Origin: Parcubacteria bacterium RAAC4_OD1_1
Lineage (GTDB): Bacteria > Patescibacteriota > Minisyncoccia > Phycocordibacterales > UBA9973
Direction: 5' to 3'
Length of the DNA: 64,000 nucleotides
NCBI GenBank assembly: GCA_000505065.1
Contig: AWSN01000001.1
Location: forward strand, 339,647 to 403,646
The position numbers and the translations under genes are program-made. This document shows positions 2,420 to 59,660 of the stretch, piece by piece (positions within the stretch are counted from its first letter, which is position 1; every line of letters begins with the position of its first letter). The notes under the pieces are model-generated. The model ran no database searches. It was not told the DNA's origin and saw only the letters and a list, made by a program, of their open reading frames with translations.

Positions 2420-2434
2420 AAAAGCTAAAATTAA

Positions 2435-2535
2435 AATAGTCTTATTGGAGTGGCTTGCGAGCGCGACGGCGCGAGCACTTGAGAAAATTTTTAGCAAAAA
2501 ATTTTCGTGCCCTCCGAGAAGAGCTATTTTAATTT
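2435..2535 (+). repeat. structured repeat family 1, copy D
   Basis: gcttgcgagcgcgacggcgcgagc...aaaatttttagcaaaaaatttt...gagaagagctatttta shares the modular architecture of copies at 4288, 15478 and 33072. Its 3' end forms the hairpin agagctattttaattttagctct. Confidence 0.7.
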
Positions 2536-4255: not shown

Positions 4256-4287
4256 GTATTTATTATAACACAAAAATCTTGAATAAA

Positions 4288-4384
4288 ATAGTCTTTGAGA
4301 AATGCCTTGCGCAGGACGACGGTCCGAGCAGAGCAAAAATCCAGCAGGATTTTATGTGTGCATTTCAAGAAGAGCTATTTTATT
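4288..4384 (+). repeat. structured repeat family 1, copy A (reference copy)
   Basis: aatagtctttgagaaatgccttgcgcagg-ACGACGG-tccgagcagagcaaaaatccagcaggattttatgtgtgcatttcaagaagagctatttta; about 85 percent identical to the reverse complement of 33072-33168. Confidence 0.8.
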
Positions 4385-6274: not shown

Positions 6275-6742
6275 TTAGTTACAATAGTAACTTCCACATT
6301 GTGGATAGAAAAACTTTGGTCCTATAAATGATACATAATCACTAGGAACTCCACTGTATCCACCATTTAGATATGGATAACCACTCATAGTTGTTCTTTG
6401 TGATCCATAAATACTATTACTAAACATTGGATTTTGATAGTATCCATAATTTCCTCCATAATATGAAGGAGAATAACCATAGCCACCACCATAATTAGAA
6501 GCATAATTATAATTATCATAGCCGTAGCCACCATAACTAGAGCCATAACCATAATTATCGTAACCATAGCCACTATCATATCCATAGTTATCATAGCCAT
6601 AACCATACCCATCATTATAATAATTACTTGAGCCAAAACTTATATCAACCCCAAAGTAAGCATCAGATTTCTCAGGAAGAGCAAATACTGAAACTCCAAC
6701 AAGGATGACAAAAGCGACTACTAAAATGTTAATTTTTTTCAT
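6275..6742 (-). CDS. secreted Gly/Tyr-repeat low-complexity protein
   Basis: Signal peptide MKKINILVVAFVILVGVSVFA, then GYGYDNYGYD-type repeats, C-terminal CGSYYC. Confidence 0.65.
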   Translation of the reverse strand: MKKINILVVAFVILVGVSVFALPEKSDAYFGVDISFGSSNYYNDGYGYGYDNYGYDSGYGYDNYGYGSSYGGYGYDNYNYASNYGGGYGYSPSYYGGNYGYYQNPMFSNSIYGSQRTTMSGYPYLNGGYSGVPSDYVSFIGPKFFYPQCGSYYCN

Positions 6743-10137: not shown

Positions 10138-10209
10138 GGATCTATAGTTCAGGGGCTAGAACACCAGATTTTAATTCTGGAAACATGAGTTCAACTCTCG
10201 TCAGATCTA
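10138..10209 (+). tRNA. tRNA-like gene with anticodon TTA (would read UAA; ochre-suppressor-like), possibly a pseudo-tRNA
   Basis: Cloverleaf: acceptor GGATCTA/CAGATCT (one A:C mismatch, one G:U); D-arm GTTC-AGGGGCTA-GAAC; anticodon stem CCAGA/TCTGG with loop TT-TTA-AT; 4-nt variable loop; T-arm ATGAG-TTCAACT-CTCGT. A terminator follows at 10313-10345. Confidence 0.5.
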
Positions 10210-10312
10210 CGGAAAGTTCTTTGTATATATAAACATATAAAAATGTGATTTTGGGAGAGGTCAACATTAAAGGGCATTCAACCGCTCGTTTGTTTATATT
10301 TGAAGAACTTAG

Positions 10313-15256: not shown

Positions 15257-16351
15257 TTATTTTGTCTTTTTTAAATATTCTTTCACAATTTTCTCTACTT
15301 CTTTTGCATTTTTGGTATTCATTAGTTTTATGCGAAGATCCTTAGCTCCATCCCATCCATTCACATACGCTTTATAATGCTTTTTCATAATATTAAAACT
15401 TTTTACTTTTCCTAGCATCTTCTCAAAAAGTTTTGTGTGTTCTACTAAAATTTTTAATCTTTCTTTTAGCGAAGGGATATGTTCTGAAAAGCCTTGCGCA
15501 GGGCGACTGGCCCGAGCAGAGAAATTTTTCACCAGAAAAATATTCGTGCTTTTCGGAATATATCCCAAGCGAAAAGAATCTAACCCAGCAAAAAACCACG
15601 GCTTGCCGAAAATACCCCTTCCCACCATTATCCCATCACATCCAGTTTTTTTCCATTTATTTATTCCATCTTCAAGACTTTCTACATCTCCATTACCAAT
15701 TATTTTCGTTTTCAATCCCATTTTATTTCTTATATCCACTACTTCTTTTATATGCTCCCAACGAGCTGGAACGAGGGACATTTCTTTTCTTGTTCTCGCG
15801 TGTATAGTAAGAGCATCTATGTCTTGAGAAAGAAGAAATGGTATCCATTCATTTATTTCATTTTTATTATATCCAATACGAGTTTTCACAGATATAGAGA
15901 TTTTCCTTGCCCGCCCTTTGGAATAGGGTTCTGCACTTGCATCTTTTATCCCATCTTTCACAGCTTGTATTATTTCTCCTGCAAGCTTAGGATTCTTCAT
16001 TAAGGATGCTCCTGCACCCTGCTTCTCTACTTTCTTATCAGGGCAACCCATATTGATATCTATGCCATCAAAACCAAGTGAGGCTACATATTTCGATGCT
16101 TCTCTCATTTTTTTAGGATTTGAAGAAAAAAGTTGTGCCACTATTGGCTTTTCTTTTTTATTAAATTTCAAATCTATTTCTAGTGCTTTTCTTCCTTCTT
16201 TATTTGAAAGTCCATCAGCAGAAACAAACTCTGTCCACATAACATCCGGCTTACCATATTTTACAAACATAGAGCGAAAAGAAGCATCTGTGACATCTGC
16301 CATCGGTGCAATACAAAAAAATGGTTTTTTTAATTTATTCCAAAAATTCAT
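15257..16351 (-). CDS. dus: tRNA-dihydrouridine synthase carrying an in-frame insertion from a family-1 repeat
   Basis: Dus motifs (FFCIAPMADVTD, NMGCP, GRGIFGKPWFF). Residues about 262-292 (LGYIPKSTNIFLVKNFSARASRPAQGFSEHI) are encoded by repeat copy B. Confidence 0.85.
   Translation of the reverse strand: MNFWNKLKKPFFCIAPMADVTDASFRSMFVKYGKPDVMWTEFVSADGLSNKEGRKALEIDLKFNKKEKPIVAQLFSSNPKKMREASKYVASLGFDGIDINMGCPDKKVEKQGAGASLMKNPKLAGEIIQAVKDGIKDASAEPYSKGRARKISISVKTRIGYNKNEINEWIPFLLSQDIDALTIHARTRKEMSLVPARWEHIKEVVDIRNKMGLKTKIIGNGDVESLEDGINKWKKTGCDGIMVGRGIFGKPWFFAGLDSFRLGYIPKSTNIFLVKNFSARASRPAQGFSEHIPSLKERLKILVEHTKLFEKMLGKVKSFNIMKKHYKAYVNGWDGAKDLRIKLMNTKNAKEVEKIVKEYLKKTK
15478..15568 (+). repeat. 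structured repeat family 1, copy B, inside the dus CDS
   Basis: gttctgaaaagccttgcgcagg-GCGACTGG-cccgagcagagaaatttttcaccagaaaaatattcgtgcttttcggaata; GC-rich island within the gene. Confidence 0.75.
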
Positions 16352-32715: not shown

Positions 32716-33042
32716 ATGTCTAATTTTAGAGATATAAAAATAGAAAATAGAGTAAAAGAATTATCTGCTAGCTTTATTGAAAGAGAAGCTAGCCCTTCTT
32801 CTCTTATTACTGTCACAAGAGTACTGATGAGCAAAGACAGTAAAAAGGCTAAAATTATGATAAGCGTTTTGCCTAAAGAAAAAGAAAATGCGGCTTATGG
32901 ATTTATAAAAAGAAATTTAGGAGAAATGAGAAAATACATATCTTCAAGTCTAAAAATAAATCCTATCCCCTTTTTAGATGTAGAAATAGACGAAGGAGAA
33001 AAAAATCGCCAAAAAATTGACGAATTGCTAAATAATAGTTAG
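32716..33042 (+). CDS. rbfA: ribosome-binding factor A
   Basis: KH-like RbfA core LITVTRVLMSKDSKKAKIMISVL; immediately downstream of infB as in most bacteria. Confidence 0.75.
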   Translation: MSNFRDIKIENRVKELSASFIEREASPSSLITVTRVLMSKDSKKAKIMISVLPKEKENAAYGFIKRNLGEMRKYISSSLKINPIPFLDVEIDEGEKNRQKIDELLNNS

Positions 33043-33071
33043 TATTAAACTACTGAGAAGAAAATCTACAC

Positions 33072-33168
33072 CAAATAGCTCTTCTCAAAATGCACACATA
33101 ATTTTCTGCTGAAAATTTGCTCTGCTCGGCTCGACAGCCTGCGCAAGGCATTTCTCAAAGACTATTTG
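33072..33168 (-). repeat. structured repeat family 1, copy C (inverted orientation)
   Basis: Reverse complement reads aatagtctttgagaaatgccttgcgcagg-CTGTCGAG-ccgagcagagcaaattttcagcagaaaattatgtgtgcattttgagaagagctattt. Confidence 0.8.
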
Positions 33169-33186
33169 GTTTCGATTTTTAAATAT

Positions 33187-33258
33187 CGGCGTGGTAGCCA
33201 AGTGGTAAGGCAGAGATCTGCAAAATCTCTATGCAGCGGTTCAATTCCGCTCCACGCC
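33187..33258 (+). tRNA. tRNA-Cys (anticodon GCA)
   Basis: Acceptor GGCGTGG/CCACGCC, anticodon stem GAGAT/ATCTC with loop CT-GCA-AA, discriminator U. Confidence 0.85.
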
Positions 33259-33261
33259 TCA

Positions 33262-39999: not shown

Positions 40000-42435
40000 C
40001 TAATTTACACAAAAACTTTGTAATTTAGAATTGGCTACACTTCTAGTCTCACTACCAACGATTCCATCATTTTTCAAATTATTATCAATCTGGAATTGTC
40101 GAACAGCAAATAGTGTAATGCTACCATATTTACCATCAATTCCACTACTATCCAAATATCCAAGCTTATTTAATATAGTTTGTAACGATTTAACTTGACT
40201 TGTATAACTAGAACCAAAATACAAATTATTACTTATAAAATTACTATTACAAGAAACATTACCCTCTAATATATTAAAGACTAAATCTTTTTCAGATTTA
40301 GTAGAGACGTAGTCTCCAGTCAATAACCCACCAACATGGCAACCCTTATCACCAATATCTATAAAACCATCTCCATCGTTATCTTTTTTATCACGACATT
40401 CTGAAGATGTAAAAAACATTGGAGAAATTGTAGTATTTGAAGGAGTTGTAGGTGCAACATTGCCTATTACGCTAGACACACACTTCTCTGACCATCTTGC
40501 ATTAAGAGTTGTTCTGGTATTTAATCCAACCACACCATCTACATATAATCCATATTTTGTTTGGAATGATTTAACTGCATTGTATGTTGCAATCCCAAAT
40601 TTACCATCTACATTAGTTGTACTTAAATATCCTAATCCATTTAACATCTTTTGTAATACATCTACTTGGCTACCTGACATACCAGATTCTAGTTTTTCAG
40701 TTAATTGTGCTCCGCAAGTCATGTCGTTAATGAAGGTGGAAGTATTTTCATATTTTTTAATCAAGATTTCTCTTTCATCTGATTGATCTGATGAAACATT
40801 CTTACCTCTTATTTTTAAAACTAAATTATAGGTAGAAGTATTATCAACTTTTGGTATGATAATTGTTTCTTCTCCATCATTTAAAGTAGAAATACTATAC
40901 GGATATGTATTATTTGGGCCCATAATAACTAAAGCAAGTTCATCTGTAGGCAAAAAACCACCAGATGTTTTCCATTTTACAGTAATTTTATCTCCAGTCT
41001 TAAACGTCTCCCCTCCATTTGGATAAGTTACAGTTATTAAAGGAGTTGTATCGTTATCACTTGCACATTTTGAATTCCACTTTGCTCTTAAAGCATCTAC
41101 TGTGAGTTTACCTGCTATTCCATCAGCTGTTAGATTATTGTCTTTCTGAAATAGTCCTACAGAATATTGGGTCAAACCATTCCAAACATATTTACCATCA
41201 ATATCTCCATACATATAACCAAAAACACTAAGCATCTTTTGTAAAGAAGTTATTTCACTAGAAGAAGCAGGAAAACCGTACTGCTGACTAAAAACAACAG
41301 AACCCCTATTTGTTTTTAAATATTCAAAATCAGGAAATCCAGCTTTACATACCTCATCTAAACTAACAGATGAATTTAATTTTGGAGCAGTGTCAACGGT
41401 TCCACAAGATATATATTGATACCAATCTCCTGAGCAAGTCTTACCACCGTTTTGAGGAGTTGGATTTGTACATCTTCTTACTTGTTTTTGTTGATTATTT
41501 GTACAAGTTCCAGAGTCTATCCAAGCACTCCACCCTCCATCAATAGGATCAGTTATAGTCCCAGTTCTCTGAACACATTTTGTAGACATTGTTGTATAAG
41601 TATATGCTCCTGCATTCCCTGCTGCTCTCCATGTATCTATAGTTTCATTTTTGTAATTCTCTACACTTATAGTATTTGGATACCATCTTTTACAATATGT
41701 AAGTTTATCTAAAATCGCACCTGATGATCCATCTGGATCAGTTTGCCAAACACCAGATCCATCAGTAGAAATATGCTGATTAACTTTTCCCCACCAATAC
41801 ATTATACGAGGAGTTGGATCGTTTACATCGGTAGTAGCAGTACAACTTACACTTCTTCCAATACTTCCTACACACCCTGCTCCACCATTTGCTGGAGCAG
41901 GGTTTGTACAAGATCTGATCTGTGGTTTCATTCCATCAACACAATCTCCATAATCTGCCCAATCTGTCCAACCACCAGGAACTGCAACAGCAGTATTTGC
42001 TGATTTTGTTTCAGAAGTTAGCTGTACACATTTGAAAGACATTTTAGTTCCAGTGTATGCTCCTCTATTTCCTGCAGCTCTCCAAGTATCTATTGTTTCA
42101 TTTTTATAATCTTCTACAGAAACAGTATTGGTCCAAAATTTTTTACAATAAGTAAGCTTATCTAAATTAGCACCTGAGGATCCATCAGAGTCTGTCTGCC
42201 AAACACCATTACTATCTATATGTTGGTTCACCATACCCCACCAATACATTATACGAGGAGTCATATCATTTGTAGCAGAAAGAGCTGTAGCCATCTGACT
42301 ACCTTTAAGTAAAGCAATCTGTACCCTTAATTCACCCACTTCTTTTTTGAGATCATCTAAAAGTGAAGCATCTGCAAACTTCACAAAACTAAAAACTAAA
42401 ACAAAAGAAACCAATCCGACTAAAAATTTTTTCAT
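40000..42435 (-). CDS. large secreted multidomain protein: signal peptide, 2x novel MYWWG-VNQH repeat domain, 2x thrombospondin-type-1-like repeat, Kre9/KNH-like beta-sandwich, 3x peptidoglycan-binding domain
   Basis: TPRIMYWWG(K/M)VNQHI...TYCKK(F/W)(W/Y)...ETIDTWRAAGN...KCVQ occurs twice. WxxWxxC...RxCTNP(A/T)PxNGGxxCxG occurs twice. Three LQKMLxxxGY..DGKFG..T..AVxxFQ PG_binding_1 repeats. Also a CRDKKDNDGDGFIDIGDKGC Ca-binding-like motif. Confidence 0.8.
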   Translation of the reverse strand: MKKFLVGLVSFVLVFSFVKFADASLLDDLKKEVGELRVQIALLKGSQMATALSATNDMTPRIMYWWGMVNQHIDSNGVWQTDSDGSSGANLDKLTYCKKFWTNTVSVEDYKNETIDTWRAAGNRGAYTGTKMSFKCVQLTSETKSANTAVAVPGGWTDWADYGDCVDGMKPQIRSCTNPAPANGGAGCVGSIGRSVSCTATTDVNDPTPRIMYWWGKVNQHISTDGSGVWQTDPDGSSGAILDKLTYCKRWYPNTISVENYKNETIDTWRAAGNAGAYTYTTMSTKCVQRTGTITDPIDGGWSAWIDSGTCTNNQQKQVRRCTNPTPQNGGKTCSGDWYQYISCGTVDTAPKLNSSVSLDEVCKAGFPDFEYLKTNRGSVVFSQQYGFPASSSEITSLQKMLSVFGYMYGDIDGKYVWNGLTQYSVGLFQKDNNLTADGIAGKLTVDALRAKWNSKCASDNDTTPLITVTYPNGGETFKTGDKITVKWKTSGGFLPTDELALVIMGPNNTYPYSISTLNDGEETIIIPKVDNTSTYNLVLKIRGKNVSSDQSDEREILIKKYENTSTFINDMTCGAQLTEKLESGMSGSQVDVLQKMLNGLGYLSTTNVDGKFGIATYNAVKSFQTKYGLYVDGVVGLNTRTTLNARWSEKCVSSVIGNVAPTTPSNTTISPMFFTSSECRDKKDNDGDGFIDIGDKGCHVGGLLTGDYVSTKSEKDLVFNILEGNVSCNSNFISNNLYFGSSYTSQVKSLQTILNKLGYLDSSGIDGKYGSITLFAVRQFQIDNNLKNDGIVGSETRSVANSKLQSFCVN

Positions 42436-42489
42436 AATATTTACAATAAAACTAATAATAATCGACTAATAACAAAAAAATAATAAAAA

Positions 42490-44025
42490 CTAATCTAAAT
42501 TTAATAACTCAAATTTAATACGGTCCAAAACTTCATCATTATTTATAAATCCACTAACATTTAAATTATTATTTTTTTGATACTCAACGACAGCCAAACG
42601 TGTCTTCTCTCCATAAATTCCATCTATTTTATCTATATTATACCCTTTATCTTTTAAGATTTTCTGTAAAAGTTTTACATCATTACCAGACACTCCGACA
42701 ACTAAATCTCTATAAAAAGAAACATTTACTAAGTCTAATTCTTTATATTCCTGATTTTCTTGTTCTATAATTGGATTTATTTCAGGAATAGTGGCTACAC
42801 AATCAACTTCTTCATTATTAATATCAAAACACATATTTTCATTATCTACAATAGGCAATACAGAAGGTAATGTTTTCTCAGAAATACATTCTATAGACAT
42901 CTTTGTGGCTGTATAAGCTCCGGTATTTTTAACCGCTCTCCATGTATTGATAGTTTCATTTTTATAGTCTTTTGTATTTGTGATATTTAATTTTGGATAC
43001 CATTTCTTACAATATGTAAGTTTATCTAAATTTGCTCCAGAAACTCCATCTGGGTCTGTTTGCCAAACTCCAGCATTATCTATATGCTGATTAACTTTTC
43101 CCCACCAATACATTATACGAGGAGTTTTATCTATGTTTGTATCAATAATTGTCGGTAAACATTCTTTTCCTGTTATGGTGCTAAATTTATTTCCAAAACC
43201 ACAACCAATATATGGGTCTACAATAACTAATGTATCATCTTCTGGGTCTCCAGGTTGTACACATTTCATAGACATTTTTGTAGATGTCCAATTATTTTTA
43301 TTTCCTCTTTCTTTCCACTTATCGATAGTTTCCAATTTATGATCAATAACTTTTATAGTCTTTGGATACCATTTCTTACAATATGTAAGTTTATCTAAAT
43401 TTGCTCCAGAGACTCCATCTGGGTCTGTTTGCCAAACTCCAGTATTGTCTATATGCTGATTAACCTTACCCCACCAATACATTATACGAGGAGTTTTATC
43501 ATTTGTGGTAATTTTATCAGTAATAATTTTAGTTTTATCTATAGATAATTTGTAAATTAAGCCACCAGGATTTAATTTTGGATCTGTGTGAATTGAAGAA
43601 TTATTTACAACTGTAAATTTTACAGTATTATTCCCTTGTTTTAAATAATTTGTTATATCTCTTGTTGTGATATAAGTAAACGCACTACCTAAATAATTAT
43701 CTTCAAAAATAATATTGTTAATTTCTAGTATATAACCATTATCTGTAGCAAATTGTATTTGTGCTGAATTAATATCATTTTCTATGGTAAAAGTTTTTGT
43801 AAAAGTTTCAACTTCTCCATTTATAGAGTTAGAAGCATAATATGAATTCCATATCCAAAAAGCACCAGGGATACTAACCCATTTTTTATTTTTCCATGCA
43901 TAAACAGCATTGTCTCCATTACTTAATATATCTGTATTATCACTATATATATTTAAAGTATCAGCACTAGAAATACCTCCAAATGAAATAAATAAAACAA
44001 ATATGAATAATATTTTTTTTAGCAT
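42490..44025 (-). CDS. secreted paralogue: signal peptide, beta-sandwich/lectin-like N-domain, 2x MYWWGKVNQH repeat domain, C-terminal peptidoglycan-binding domain
   Basis: Two copies of TPRIMYWWGKVNQHIDN(T/A)GVWQTDPDGVSGANLDKLTYCKKWYPK...ETI(D/N)(K/T)W...KCVQ/ECIS; C-terminal LQKILKDKGYNIDKIDGIYGEKTRLAVVEYQ. Confidence 0.8.
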   Translation of the reverse strand: MLKKILFIFVLFISFGGISSADTLNIYSDNTDILSNGDNAVYAWKNKKWVSIPGAFWIWNSYYASNSINGEVETFTKTFTIENDINSAQIQFATDNGYILEINNIIFEDNYLGSAFTYITTRDITNYLKQGNNTVKFTVVNNSSIHTDPKLNPGGLIYKLSIDKTKIITDKITTNDKTPRIMYWWGKVNQHIDNTGVWQTDPDGVSGANLDKLTYCKKWYPKTIKVIDHKLETIDKWKERGNKNNWTSTKMSMKCVQPGDPEDDTLVIVDPYIGCGFGNKFSTITGKECLPTIIDTNIDKTPRIMYWWGKVNQHIDNAGVWQTDPDGVSGANLDKLTYCKKWYPKLNITNTKDYKNETINTWRAVKNTGAYTATKMSIECISEKTLPSVLPIVDNENMCFDINNEEVDCVATIPEINPIIEQENQEYKELDLVNVSFYRDLVVGVSGNDVKLLQKILKDKGYNIDKIDGIYGEKTRLAVVEYQKNNNLNVSGFINNDEVLDRIKFELLNLD

Positions 44026-45486: not shown

Positions 45487-45624
45487 AAATTAATTAAATT
45501 TTAAAAAATAATAAAACACTTCACTATGGACCTTTGTGTGCTAGCTTCAGTGCTAGAACAAGTGAAATGTGTCTTTATATTAACAAAAAAATAGCCTTTT
45601 GTCCAGACTAAAATCGAAACAAAC

Positions 45625-45715
45625 TTTTTCAAGAAAAAATGTCTGGCACCGGCCCCCCCTAAATCCGAGGACTTTTTTATTGATAAAGTTTGTGAAGATT
45701 TTTTATATTTTAAAA
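45625..45715 (+). repeat. repeat family 2, copy 1 (in rpsF 5' region)
   Basis: gaaaaaatgtctggcaccggccccccctaaatccgaggacttttttattgataaagtttgtgaagatttttt matches 59345-59435. Confidence 0.7.
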
Positions 45716-46566
45716 AGTTTTTTAGCATTTTCTAATATCTGAATAGCAACTTTTTCCTCATCCAATCTTTTTATCTCTGCAATCTTTTTTACTATATCTT
45801 TAACATAAACAGATTCATTTCTTTTCCCCCTATGTGGAACAGGGGCGACATAAGGGCTATCTGTGTCTGCCATAATCCTATCTAACGGTAATTCTTTTAT
45901 AATTTCTTCATAATTTATTTTTCTTGGATCATTTTTTTTTGGAGGATAAGTTATAACCCCAGCAAAAGAAACATAAAAACCAAAATCAATAAAATCTTTC
46001 GCGTCTTTTAGAGTCCCAGCAAAAAAATGTATCACACCTTTGACCTTAGAATATTTTTTCAATATTTCAAGTACATCCTGATAGGCACTTATATTTAAAT
46101 TCTCATCACTATTTCTTATGTGGAGCATTAGGGGTATTTCTAACTCATTAGCAAGCTCTATCTGGTCTATAAAAGCTTTCTTTTGTTTTTCTACACTATC
46201 GGGAGATAAATGATAATAATCAAGTCCACACTCACCTACTCCTACTACCTTCCCTATTTTAGTAAGCTCTCTGTATTTATTTTTATCAAAAATTTCACCA
46301 CGTGAAGTAAATTCTTTTTCTTCACTTCCGAGCTCACTTTCATCATGATATGAGGTGCTCGTATGTATAGGGTGAAGCCCAATAGTAGAATAAACCCCCT
46401 CTTTGTATTTATTCGTCATCTCTACAGCCTTTTTTGAAGTATCATATTGTGTGCCGATATTTATTACCCAAGTATCTCCCTCTAATGCACGAGAAATAAC
46501 AGCATCACGATCTTCATCAAATGCCACAAAATTAATATGTGCATGTATGTCTATATATTTAGGCAT
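45703..46566 (-). CDS. TatD family metal-dependent DNase/hydrolase
   Basis: IDIHAHINF..., GLHP, and further His/Asp metal ligands in TIM-barrel order. Confidence 0.8.
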   Translation of the reverse strand: MPKYIDIHAHINFVAFDEDRDAVISRALEGDTWVINIGTQYDTSKKAVEMTNKYKEGVYSTIGLHPIHTSTSYHDESELGSEEKEFTSRGEIFDKNKYRELTKIGKVVGVGECGLDYYHLSPDSVEKQKKAFIDQIELANELEIPLMLHIRNSDENLNISAYQDVLEILKKYSKVKGVIHFFAGTLKDAKDFIDFGFYVSFAGVITYPPKKNDPRKINYEEIIKELPLDRIMADTDSPYVAPVPHRGKRNESVYVKDIVKKIAEIKRLDEEKVAIQILENAKKLFKI

Positions 46567-59277: not shown

Positions 59278-59344
59278 ATATTTTCTATTAAATTAATAAT
59301 TTAATAAATTAAAATTTTAATAAGTCTTTTTAACGAAGCAAATT

Positions 59345-59435
59345 ATTTTATGAAAAAATGTCTGGCACCGGTTCCCGTCCCCCTTGTCCGAGGACTTTTT
59401 TCAGAATATAATTTGCGAAGTTTTTATTTTTTAAA
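59345..59435 (+). repeat. repeat family 2, copy 2 (between T-box terminator and ileS start)
   Basis: tgaaaaaatgtctggcaccggttcccgtcccccttgtccgaggacttttttcagaatataatttgcgaagttttt. Confidence 0.7.
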
Positions 59436-59660
59436 TAAAAAACTCGTCCACATATAGCAATCCAATAGATTGTTATATAAGGACGAGTTTCTATCCTAAT
59501 TCGCAATGCGAACGGACAAGCCCGTGGTACCACCTTTTTTCTTCCGCAAAGCGGAACTCATTTATAGGGTTCTACCGACTCTTGAGGCCTTGCCTAAAGA
59601 GTTTTCTTCCCAGTGCTAGCCTTATAAATAAGGCAAAGGCTGATAACCTCGATCACACTC
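59428..59660 (-). promoter_or_regulatory. T-box riboswitch leader of ileS
   Basis: On minus strand: T-box sequence AAGGTGGTACCACGGG (59521-59536, consensus GGGTGGTACCGCGG), then terminator AAACTCGTCC-loop-GGACGAGTTT plus U-run (59428-59490); ATC in a candidate specifier region; about 200-nt structured leader. Confidence 0.7.

What the first reader, a model, noticed from the sequence alone, without database searches (positions are those of the whole stretch)
15478..15568. Family-1 repeat inserted in-frame inside the tRNA-dihydrouridine synthase gene
Copy B of the repeat lies inside dus on the minus strand. It encodes about 30 extra residues (LGYIPKSTNIFLVKNFSARASRPAQGFSEHI) between the conserved GRGIFGKPWFF segment and the C-terminal helical domain, without breaking the frame. 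The same element, read in the same relative frame, gives RRPAQGISQRLF in the spurious 5' extension of yqeY, and it also extends the obg ORF. In-frame tolerance of a selfish repeat inside a housekeeping enzyme is the hallmark of Rickettsia RPEs and is rarely reported elsewhere.
Basis: partly seen in the sequence, partly recalled or inferred. Interest (0 to 1): 0.7.

Follow-up and report, generated by a model that had tools for sequence, protein, structure and literature searches.

The report
Palindromic repeat inserted in-frame in dus
A roughly 100-base hairpin-forming repeat, found in many Patescibacteria (CPR) genomes, sits in-frame inside the tRNA-dihydrouridine synthase gene and adds about 31 residues, modelled as a disordered loop, much like the palindromic elements of Rickettsia.

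Summary
Window 15468-15572 (-) is one of four copies of a repeat in the window; the others are at 4281-4384, 33069-33172 and a decayed copy at 2429-2533. It lies in-frame in dus (15257-16351, -) and adds residues ~261-292 between the TIM barrel and the C-terminal helical domain. AlphaFold models this stretch as low-confidence coil, and the solved Dus 1VHN has 8 residues there.

The repeat is not local. An exact 20-base core pattern found about 60 copies in Nomurabacteria, Zambryskibacteria, Paceibacterota and other Patescibacteria. All fold into a three-way junction with a largely conserved core and copy-specific arms that covary. No Rfam family matches.

About a quarter of the copies lie in-frame, in either orientation, in housekeeping genes (Dus, LigA, MnmA, ArgRS, TsaD, KsgA, GlmM, TruB). 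The five intergenic copies checked lie between complete genes.

The dus copy is orthologous in at least six other assemblies, so it is not an assembly artefact. Its arms covary inside the coding sequence. Relatives at the same site carry nothing, a footprint, or a second palindromic family.

Best reading: an RPE-like, non-autonomous palindromic element that is translated as a tolerated linker loop. How it moves is unknown. I found no published description.

The parts
15468..15572 (-). Copy B of the family-1 palindromic element, in-frame inside dus. It encodes residues ~261-292 (RLGYIPKSTNIFLVKNFSARASRPAQGFSEHI). The full palindrome, including the outer helix TTCTTTT/AAAAGAA, spans about 15463-15580.
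   Evidence: cmsearch 92.6 bits, E = 1e-25. Three-way-junction fold. Alignments A4 and A7.
15257..16351 (-). dus, the tRNA-dihydrouridine synthase host gene (364 aa). TIM barrel to about residue 256; C-terminal helical domain from residue 295.
   Evidence: ORF. Homologues carry PF01207. PDB matches 1VHN, 6EI9 and 3B0V. AlphaFold model pLDDT 82, pTM 0.84.
4281..4384 (-). Copy A, intergenic between yqeY-like (-) and an exonuclease-like gene (+). It creates the spurious N-terminal extension MLCSDRRPAQGISQRLF of the yqeY ORF.
   Evidence: cmsearch 105.2 bits. ORF list. Fold -36/-40 kcal/mol, z = -7.3/-6.5.
33069..33172 (+). Copy C, intergenic between the 108-aa ORF (32716-33042) that I take to be rbfA-like (read by eye, no family scan) and tRNA-Cys (33188-33260).
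   Evidence: cmsearch 101.8 bits. tRNA scan. ORFs.
2429..2533 (-). Copy D, with a decayed core (CTCAAGTGCTCGCGCCGTCGCGCTCGCAAGCC), between the 2558-3454 gene and obg. It extends the obg ORF at the 5' end.
   Evidence: cmsearch 52.8 bits, E = 7e-13. Sequence. ORFs.
45615..45716 (.). Family-2 palindromic element (core AAAAAATGTCTGGCACCGG..TCCGAGGACTTTTTT). A relative of this family occupies the same dus site in a close relative (L203).
   Evidence: Repeat families D9/D11. Fold. Shared core GTCCTCGGA..GCCAGAC with the L203 dus insert.
59334..59439 (.). Second copy of the family-2 palindromic element.

Best explanation
Copy B is a non-autonomous, palindromic repeat element. The core is about 95-105 nt, and 118-125 nt with its outer arms. 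The family is spread through Patescibacteria.

As a single strand it folds into a Y-shaped three-way junction. There is a long outer stem (P1), an A/T-rich hairpin (P2, loop ~CUGCUG), and a G+C-rich hairpin (P3). The irregular base of P3 (CUCUGCUCGG / CCUGCGCAAG) and the junction bases are largely conserved, though half of those bases were fixed by the search pattern. The stems differ from copy to copy but stay complementary.

One copy landed in the linker between the TIM barrel and the helical domain of Dus, in an ancestor of a Nomurabacteria-like clade. Its length is a multiple of three and one frame is stop-free. The ribosome therefore reads through it and Dus gains about 31 residues, modelled as an unstructured loop in a linker, which is tolerated (translation and tolerance inferred). 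The copy has since been inherited vertically. Its arms evolve by paired changes, and in some lineages it was lost, leaving a short footprint, or was replaced by a second palindromic family.

Shown: homology to the repeat, the structure and its covariation, the in-frame position, orthology across assemblies, and the same behaviour in many other genes.

Inferred: that the insert is translated, that the element is or was mobile and selfish, and that it is recognised in single-stranded form by a trans-acting enzyme. Y1/HUH (RAYT-like) transposases exist in related genomes and are the only candidate seen, but no link to this element was found.
For: Repeat identity: 4 copies in the window; core pattern has 0 matches in shuffles.

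Structure: 27 pairs, 21 with compensatory changes. 90.9% of cells paired vs 67.6% in shuffles. Covariation score 0.562 vs 0.163, and no more than 0.171 when partners are slid.

In-frame copies confirmed by Pfam: Dus, Aminotran_5, LigA, MnmA, ArgRS and a ComF-like protein in sense orientation; PGM/GlmM, TsaD, RsmA and TruB in antisense orientation. Where Pfam domain limits allow a reading, they sit between domains.

The five intergenic copies tested lie between complete, distinct genes. No split genes were seen.

The dus copy is orthologous in L001, L202, L205, L206, L027 and L123, with near-identical P2 and P3 sequences in window/L001/L202 and homologous arms in the rest. 14 of 42 pairs are compensatory, with 0/500 shuffles as high.

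Empty or footprint site in L201; a different family at the same site in L203. Linker length at this site: 10-15 aa in 53 of the 82 rows scored, up to 68 aa elsewhere, with strongly folding DNA in the long ones.

Model: residues 264-289 have pLDDT below 50 and residues 263-294 are coil. 1VHN has 8 residues where this protein has 32.

The sense frame used in dus is open in 65% of intergenic copies vs 28% of shuffled frames.
Against: No proteomic or transcript evidence that the insert is translated.

No target-site duplication, no conserved terminal inverted repeats and no autonomous parent were found, so mobility is inferred only from dispersal.

Several intergenic copies appear to be at orthologous positions in different species (dnaK operon, rnhA-comEC). 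The stems covary even inside a coding sequence. Both facts would also fit a host-selected function.

In the closest relative (L001) the same copy breaks the dus frame, yet the downstream domain still shows 14 synonymous vs 4 non-synonymous codon differences. Simple read-through does not explain this unless the frameshift is an assembly error or very recent.
Confidence: 0.72

Rival explanations
1. The element is a functional structured nucleic acid kept by the host, not junk. It could be an RNA (processing or stability signal, antisense sRNA) or a single-stranded-DNA site for a conserved protein. On this view the dus copy is such a module embedded in a coding sequence.
For: The core is largely conserved in genomes of 30-55% GC, beyond the 20 bases fixed by the search pattern (positions C25 A26 C27 T31 A32 T39 T49 T50 C67 are at least 90% conserved).

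Strong covariation in all variable stems, also among orthologous dus copies while the encoded arm peptide changes.

One strand, the reverse complement of the pattern strand, folds better in 61 of 64 copies: -43.4 vs -37.1 kcal/mol, p = 7e-12. In P1, A.C mismatches outnumber G.U about 49 to 26 on the pattern strand.

Many copies lie inside operons, between complete genes.
Against: Orientation relative to neighbouring genes is mixed, and in-gene copies occur in both orientations. That argues against a fixed cis-acting mRNA role.

Decayed copies exist (25-60 bits), as expected of elements not individually under selection.

Palindromes can keep their arms complementary by template-switch correction without selection.

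The strand asymmetry partly rests on two wobble positions in the conserved consensus, so the 61 copies are not independent. No Rfam family matches.
Confidence: 0.17
2. The insert is not translated. It is removed from the mRNA or skipped by the ribosome (mini-intron, or translational bypass as for T4 gene 60 or the mitochondrial 'byps'). On this view in-frame status would be irrelevant.
For: L001: the same element with one extra base breaks the frame. Even so, the C-terminal domain downstream, in the +1 frame, is intact and shows 14 synonymous vs 4 non-synonymous differences. The element forms a very stable structure.
Against: All the other dus copies examined at this site, and about 16 copies in other genes, are stop-free and keep the host frame. 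In-gene copies that use other frames have lost the TAA/TGA of the consensus. None of the five tested intergenic copies splits a gene. No intron or ribozyme family matches. A single frameshift in a metagenome-assembled genome is most simply an error or a recent lesion.
Confidence: 0.06
3. The segment is an ordinary lineage-specific Dus linker, or an assembly artefact, and only resembles the repeat by chance.
For: None beyond the fact that this Dus linker varies in length among bacteria.
Against: 92.6-bit covariance-model match. Shared three-way junction. Absent from close (L201) and distant orthologues and from solved Dus structures. Present in six or more independent assemblies.
Confidence: 0.02

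Closest known systems
Rickettsia palindromic elements (RPE)
   Same: Dispersed palindromic repeats of ~100-150 bp with a stable predicted hairpin. They are found in intergenic DNA and, unusually often, in-frame in unrelated housekeeping genes, giving a conserved peptide compatible with the host fold. No known transposase. RPE description taken from review PMC10969869.
   Different: Different phylum (Patescibacteria vs Alphaproteobacteria) and no sequence relationship claimed or tested. This element has a Y-shaped core that is conserved across many lineages, with copy-specific covarying arms. It is read in both orientations. It shares its insertion site with a second family.
REP / BIME / REPIN elements with RAYT (Y1 HUH) transposases
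   Same: Hairpin repeats without TIR or TSD, and often inside operons. Inverted adjacent doublets occur in 5 loci. RAYT-like Y1_Tnp genes flanked by short hairpins exist in related genomes, three times just downstream of dus.
   Different: REPs are simple 20-40 nt hairpins with a 5' GTAG/CGTC tag and are extragenic. This element is a 100-125 nt three-way junction and is often intragenic. The hairpins flanking the RAYT-like genes differ in sequence from family 1.
Classical bacterial MITEs (Correia, ERIC, RUP, BOX, Nezha, QMITE)
   Same: Small, non-coding, multi-copy. Occasionally fused in-frame to ORFs (review PMC10969869).
   Different: MITEs have conserved terminal inverted repeats, target-site duplications and a parent IS. 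None of these was found here.
G+C-rich palindromic clusters and 'byp' elements of yeast mitochondria (from my own knowledge)
   Same: G+C-rich hairpin elements in an A+T-rich genome that also invade coding sequences.
   Different: Organellar. Byps are skipped by the ribosome, whereas here read-through is the better-supported reading.

Membership tests
Rickettsia palindromic elements (RPE) - used as functional analogue, membership not claimed | Multi-copy dispersed repeat of about 100-150 bp | tested here: met
   4 copies in 64 kb. Further copies in 13 of about 60 8-kb loci. Full palindrome median 123 nt.
Rickettsia palindromic elements (RPE) - used as functional analogue, membership not claimed | Palindromic, with a stable predicted secondary structure | tested here: met
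   z-scores -3.9 to -7.3. Covariation.
Rickettsia palindromic elements (RPE) - used as functional analogue, membership not claimed | Frequent in-frame insertion in unrelated housekeeping ORFs, giving a conserved peptide | tested here: met
   About 16 of 63 copies. Hosts confirmed by Pfam. Peptides: KSTNIxLLxNFSARPSRPAQGF (sense) and PGSLAQDDGPSRSKIQQDFMCADG (antisense).
Rickettsia palindromic elements (RPE) - used as functional analogue, membership not claimed | Sequence homology to one of the RPE families; occurrence in Rickettsia | not tested
   No RPE sequences were compared. The hosts here are Patescibacteria (record titles).
Classical MITE | Terminal inverted repeats conserved among copies | tested here: not met
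   Outer arms differ in every copy. Only the internal core is conserved.
Classical MITE | Target-site duplication flanking the element | tested here: not met
   No consistent direct repeat outside the palindrome. The TTCGCT on both sides of copy B is part of a conserved internal-loop motif (CTCGG / CCTTCG) seen in many copies.
Classical MITE | Autonomous parent IS with the same ends | tested here: inconclusive
   No recurrent neighbouring gene other than orthologous loci. Only 8-kb flanks were available.
REP/REPIN-RAYT | Short (20-40 nt) simple hairpin with a conserved 5' tetranucleotide (GTAG/CGTC) | tested here: not met
   100-125 nt three-way junction. CGTC/AGTC occurs in the P3 loop, not at the foot of the hairpin.
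REP/REPIN-RAYT | Copies flank a RAYT (Y1_Tnp) gene | tested here: not met
   RAYT-like genes in L205, L052 and L163 are flanked by other, simple hairpins. None is present in the window (tblastn).
REP/REPIN-RAYT | Inverted adjacent doublets | tested here: met
   L081, L092, L019, L007 and L034.
Described structured RNAs / self-cleaving ribozymes / introns (Rfam 15) | Match to a curated covariance model | tested here: not met
   No hit at gathering threshold in the window. Nothing relevant at E up to 10 on the element alone, either strand.
tRNA-dihydrouridine synthase (Dus, PF01207) - host gene | TIM-barrel catalytic domain plus C-terminal helical domain | tested here: met
   PF01207 in all homologues. 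1VHN/6EI9/3B0V matches in two stretches flanking the insert. Model.

The most novel reading that the evidence does not exclude
Family 1 is an undescribed structured module found across many Patescibacteria lineages. Its conserved Y-shaped core would be the recognition site, in single-stranded DNA or RNA, of a dedicated and still unidentified enzyme. It would still be active, together with sister families, and would be a main source of the lineage-specific insertions seen in CPR housekeeping proteins. In a stronger version, some copies are tolerated because they are bypassed or recoded, as the frame-broken but still conserved dus of L001 might suggest.
Probability: 0.2. Interest if true: 0.85.

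Novelty: new variant of a known kind. Interest (0 to 1): 0.62.

Why it matters
Patescibacteria have very small, streamlined genomes and are thought to carry little repeated or mobile DNA. In-frame invasion of housekeeping genes by palindromic repeats is documented at high frequency chiefly for Rickettsia (PMC10969869).

A conserved, structured element of this kind in many CPR lineages would give a second, independent system for two questions: how such elements spread without an obvious transposase, and how they remodel proteins. It would also explain part of the unusual insertions in CPR proteins.

There is a practical side too. The elements create spurious ORF extensions (yqeY and obg here), inflate protein lengths, and can be mistaken for lineage-specific protein features.

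Tried and rejected
1. Rfam, at gathering threshold on the window and in permissive mode on the element alone: no family.

2. The roughly half of the genome contigs pattern hits that lie in Actinomycetota are a chance match inside a high-GC protein-coding gene. They were discarded.

3. Viral contigs: one exact pattern match, not supported by the covariance model.

4. A census of proteins carrying the insert peptide failed three ways. The X-padded profile found no candidates. A 35-aa phmmer search against 1.84 billion representatives gave only 2 hits at E up to 1e-3. A 43-column profile gave 5 weak hits. The peptide is too short for database-wide E-values, so the generality claim rests on the DNA loci.

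5. Terminator idea: A-runs and T-runs flanking intergenic copies are part of the palindrome arms. Outside them, T-runs and A-runs are at most marginally above background: 5 of 63 and 10 of 63 copies, against a background of about 9-10%. The simple terminator scan does not flag the copies.

6. Target-site duplications: none found.

7. Neighbour-gene enrichment for a transposase: only orthologous loci recur.

8. RAYT link: the RAYT-like genes have their own, different hairpins.

9. GC skew in the window follows gene strand and gives no replication-direction test.

10. L020 and L041 carry the element in opposite orientation in the same rnhA-comEC spacer, but the flanks are too diverged to tell inversion from independent insertion.

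11. Literature searches found no description for CPR/Patescibacteria.

Full report
**The observation.** The minus-strand ORF 15257..16351 encodes a 364-aa tRNA-dihydrouridine synthase. The G+C-rich core GGCCAGTCGCCCTGCGCAAGGC recurs at 4304-4325, with no matches in 100 shuffles. The repeat finder pairs 4286-4380 with 33073-33167 at 86%. Aligning the three copies shows a shared block...GCAC.CATA-hairpin-T.CTCTGCTCGG-hairpin-CCTGCGCAAGGC.... A covariance model built later finds four copies in the window:
- A, 4281-4384 (-), 105 bits
- C, 33069-33172 (+), 102 bits
- B, 15468-15572 (-), 93 bits
- D, 2429-2533 (-), 53 bits, decayed

Copy A produces the false N-terminal extension of yqeY (MLCSDRRPAQGISQRLF) and copy D that of obg. 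The frame shared by A and B holds only downstream of the P3 hairpin, whose tip differs by one base.

**Anatomy.** Each copy folds into a three-way junction: a long outer stem, an A/T-rich hairpin and a G+C-rich hairpin. Folding z-scores range from -3.9 to -7.3. The stems differ between copies but remain complementary.

**A wide family.** About half are a chance match inside a high-GC actinobacterial coding gene. The other ~60 (GC 0.30-0.55) come from records titled Nomurabacteria, Zambryskibacteria, Paceibacterota, Minisyncoccia, Parcubacteria, 'Saccharibacteria' and Patescibacteria. All show the same architecture.

On an alignment of 62 copies:
- RNAalifold predicts 27 pairs, 21 of them with compensatory changes.
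- 90.9% of cells are paired, against 67.6% in shuffles.
- The covariation score is 0.562, against 0.163 in shuffles and at most 0.171 when partners are slid.
- The base of P3 and the junctions are conserved. Twenty of those bases were fixed by my search pattern, but nine further positions are at least 90% conserved.

Many copies also share an outer asymmetric internal loop (5' CTCGG / 3' CCTTCG) followed by a copy-specific outer helix. The TTCGCT on both sides of copy B belongs to that loop and is not a target duplication. The median full palindrome is 123 nt. No Rfam family matches, even in permissive mode on either strand.

**Which strand is structured.** The reverse complement of the pattern strand folds better in 61 of 64 copies: -43.4 vs -37.1 kcal/mol, p = 7e-12. 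In the variable outer stem, A.C mismatches outnumber G.U about 49 to 26 on the pattern strand. If a single strand is what matters, it is the one antisense to dus in this window. Part of the asymmetry comes from two wobble positions in the conserved consensus, so the copies are not independent evidence.

**Behaviour in genes.** In 63 copies, about 10 lie in the sense orientation and 6-7 in the antisense orientation inside long ORFs. Pfam confirms the hosts:
- Dus at the same site (L027, L123) and at another site (L013)
- class-V aminotransferase
- LigA
- MnmA
- ArgRS
- a ComF-like protein carrying two adjacent copies in opposite orientation
- in antisense orientation: phosphoglucosamine mutase, TsaD, RsmA/KsgA and TruB

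Where Pfam domain limits allow a reading, the inserts fall between domains. Examples are MnmA between the PRC barrel and the C-terminal barrel, and GlmM between domains I and II. In-gene copies read in other frames have lost the TAA and TGA of the consensus.

Five intergenic copies that sit tightly between ORFs separate complete, distinct genes (atpD/atpC, rnhA/comEC, dnaK/dnaJ, rpsG/next, trmD/rpoB). None splits a gene. The frame used in dus is open in 65% of intergenic copies, against 28% of shuffled frames. This is the pattern described for Rickettsia palindromic elements (review PMC10969869).

**The dus site.** Homologues range from 318 to 401 aa. In the alignment, the point after GRGxFGxPWxF shows one of four states:
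- no insert
- the family-1 peptide (KSTNI[SF]LLGNFSARASRPAQVFSQ)
- a second peptide (NSKFSRVLGRGRTRGQTSSKTLIN)
- a short third type

At DNA level, L001, L202, L205, L206, L027 and L123 carry a family-1 copy at this site, scoring 81-97 bits. Window, L001 and L202 have near-identical P2 and P3 sequences, and the more distant copies have homologous arms. I read this as one old insertion inherited vertically. Among these seven copies, 14 of 42 pairs changed on both sides, with 0/500 shuffles as high and at most 4 such pairs when partners are slid. Meanwhile the peptide encoded by the arms changes (LGYIP, SEYTS, SGYTS, SEHTS, REHIS).

L201, 88% identical in the aligned protein, has no core but keeps 5-6 extra residues, which looks like a footprint. 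L203 is otherwise close to L202 but holds a different palindrome sharing GTCCTCGGA..GCCAGAC with the window's family 2. Over the 82 Dus rows scored, the linker is 10-15 aa in 53 and up to 68 aa in the rest. The long ones encode strongly folding DNA.

So this linker is a recurrent landing or retention site.

**Structure.** AlphaFold with 32 homologues gives mean pLDDT 82 and pTM 0.84. Residues 264-289 are below 50, and residues 263-294 are coil between the last barrel elements and helix 295-313. Against the solved Dus 1VHN, residues 14-260 and 293-361 align to chain residues 9-229 and 238-306. Thirty-two residues here therefore replace eight.

**Assembly error.** This is excluded by the independent assemblies listed above.

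**One unexplained case.** In L001, the closest relative, an extra base at the 5' edge of the element breaks the frame. Yet the downstream 73 codons differ from the window by 14 synonymous and 4 non-synonymous changes. This could be an error, a recent lesion or recoding. I could not decide between them.

**Mechanism of spread.** I found no target duplication, no conserved terminal repeats and no parent element. Adjacent inverted doublets occur in five loci. RAYT-like Y1_Tnp genes (HYHLII, YVHLNP motifs) lie just downstream of dus in L205, L121 and L163, and also in L052. Each is flanked by its own short hairpins, which also sit in-frame inside the RAYT ORF in L205 and L163. These hairpins are not family 1, and the window has no such gene. 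A single-strand-specific HUH enzyme is therefore a candidate only.

**Literature.** Seven full-text searches found no description of such elements in CPR/Patescibacteria.

**Verdict.** The finding is real, and the RPE-like reading is the best supported. The element is a widespread, structured, apparently undescribed family. It is a new variant of a known kind, and its mobility and any function remain open.

Noticed in passing
window 10138-10210 (+): A tRNA gene with anticodon loop UUUUAAU, i.e. anticodon UUA, which would read the UAA stop codon. ARAGORN calls it 'tRNA-Stop'; the Rfam tRNA model scores 58 bits. Genes in the window, dus included, end in TAA under code 11, so a UAA suppressor is unexpected.
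   Followed up: partly
window 15905-15937 (-), dus residues ~139-149: A second small G+C-rich insert in the same Dus protein (SAEPYSKGRAR). It is absent from the closest relatives and from 1VHN, present in a few distant orthologues (P0007, P0019, P0085), and has pLDDT below 50 at residues 143-148. It may be a remnant of another small hairpin element.
   Followed up: partly
window 45615-45716 and 59334-59439: A second family of palindromic elements (core TGTCTGGCACCGG...TCCGAGGAC). A relative of this family occupies the dus linker in L203.
   Followed up: partly
L001 10741-10871 (GCA_964618365.1): The orthologous dus copy has one extra base, so the gene is called as 280-aa and 53-aa pieces. The downstream part still shows 14 synonymous vs 4 non-synonymous differences from the window. 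Error, recent pseudogene or recoding: not resolved.
   Followed up: partly
L205 11487-12200; L121 1644-1790; L163 4140-4763; L052 6352-6915: RAYT-like Y1_Tnp (PF01797) genes, three of them immediately downstream of dus. Each is flanked by genome-specific short hairpins (e.g. GGAAGTCGGACTTCC). Some of these hairpins lie in-frame inside the RAYT ORF itself.
   Followed up: partly
L081 1120-1339; also L092, L019, L007, L034: Adjacent inverted doublets of family-1 copies. In L081 both copies lie in-frame in one ComF-like ORF.
   Followed up: no
L113 5177-5312 and 1542-1684; L079 1404-1534: Family-1 copies with an extra small G+C-rich hairpin nested in the P2 loop, making the hits 131-143 nt long.
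   Followed up: no
window 41575-43506: Four diverged direct repeats of about 208 nt (63-79% identity), spaced 369-864 nt apart. They may be paralogous genes or domains.
   Followed up: no
window 6443-6605: Short tandem-like repeats of ACCATA(A/G)CC units of 33-45 nt. If this stretch is coding, I would guess it is a low-complexity segment.
   Followed up: no
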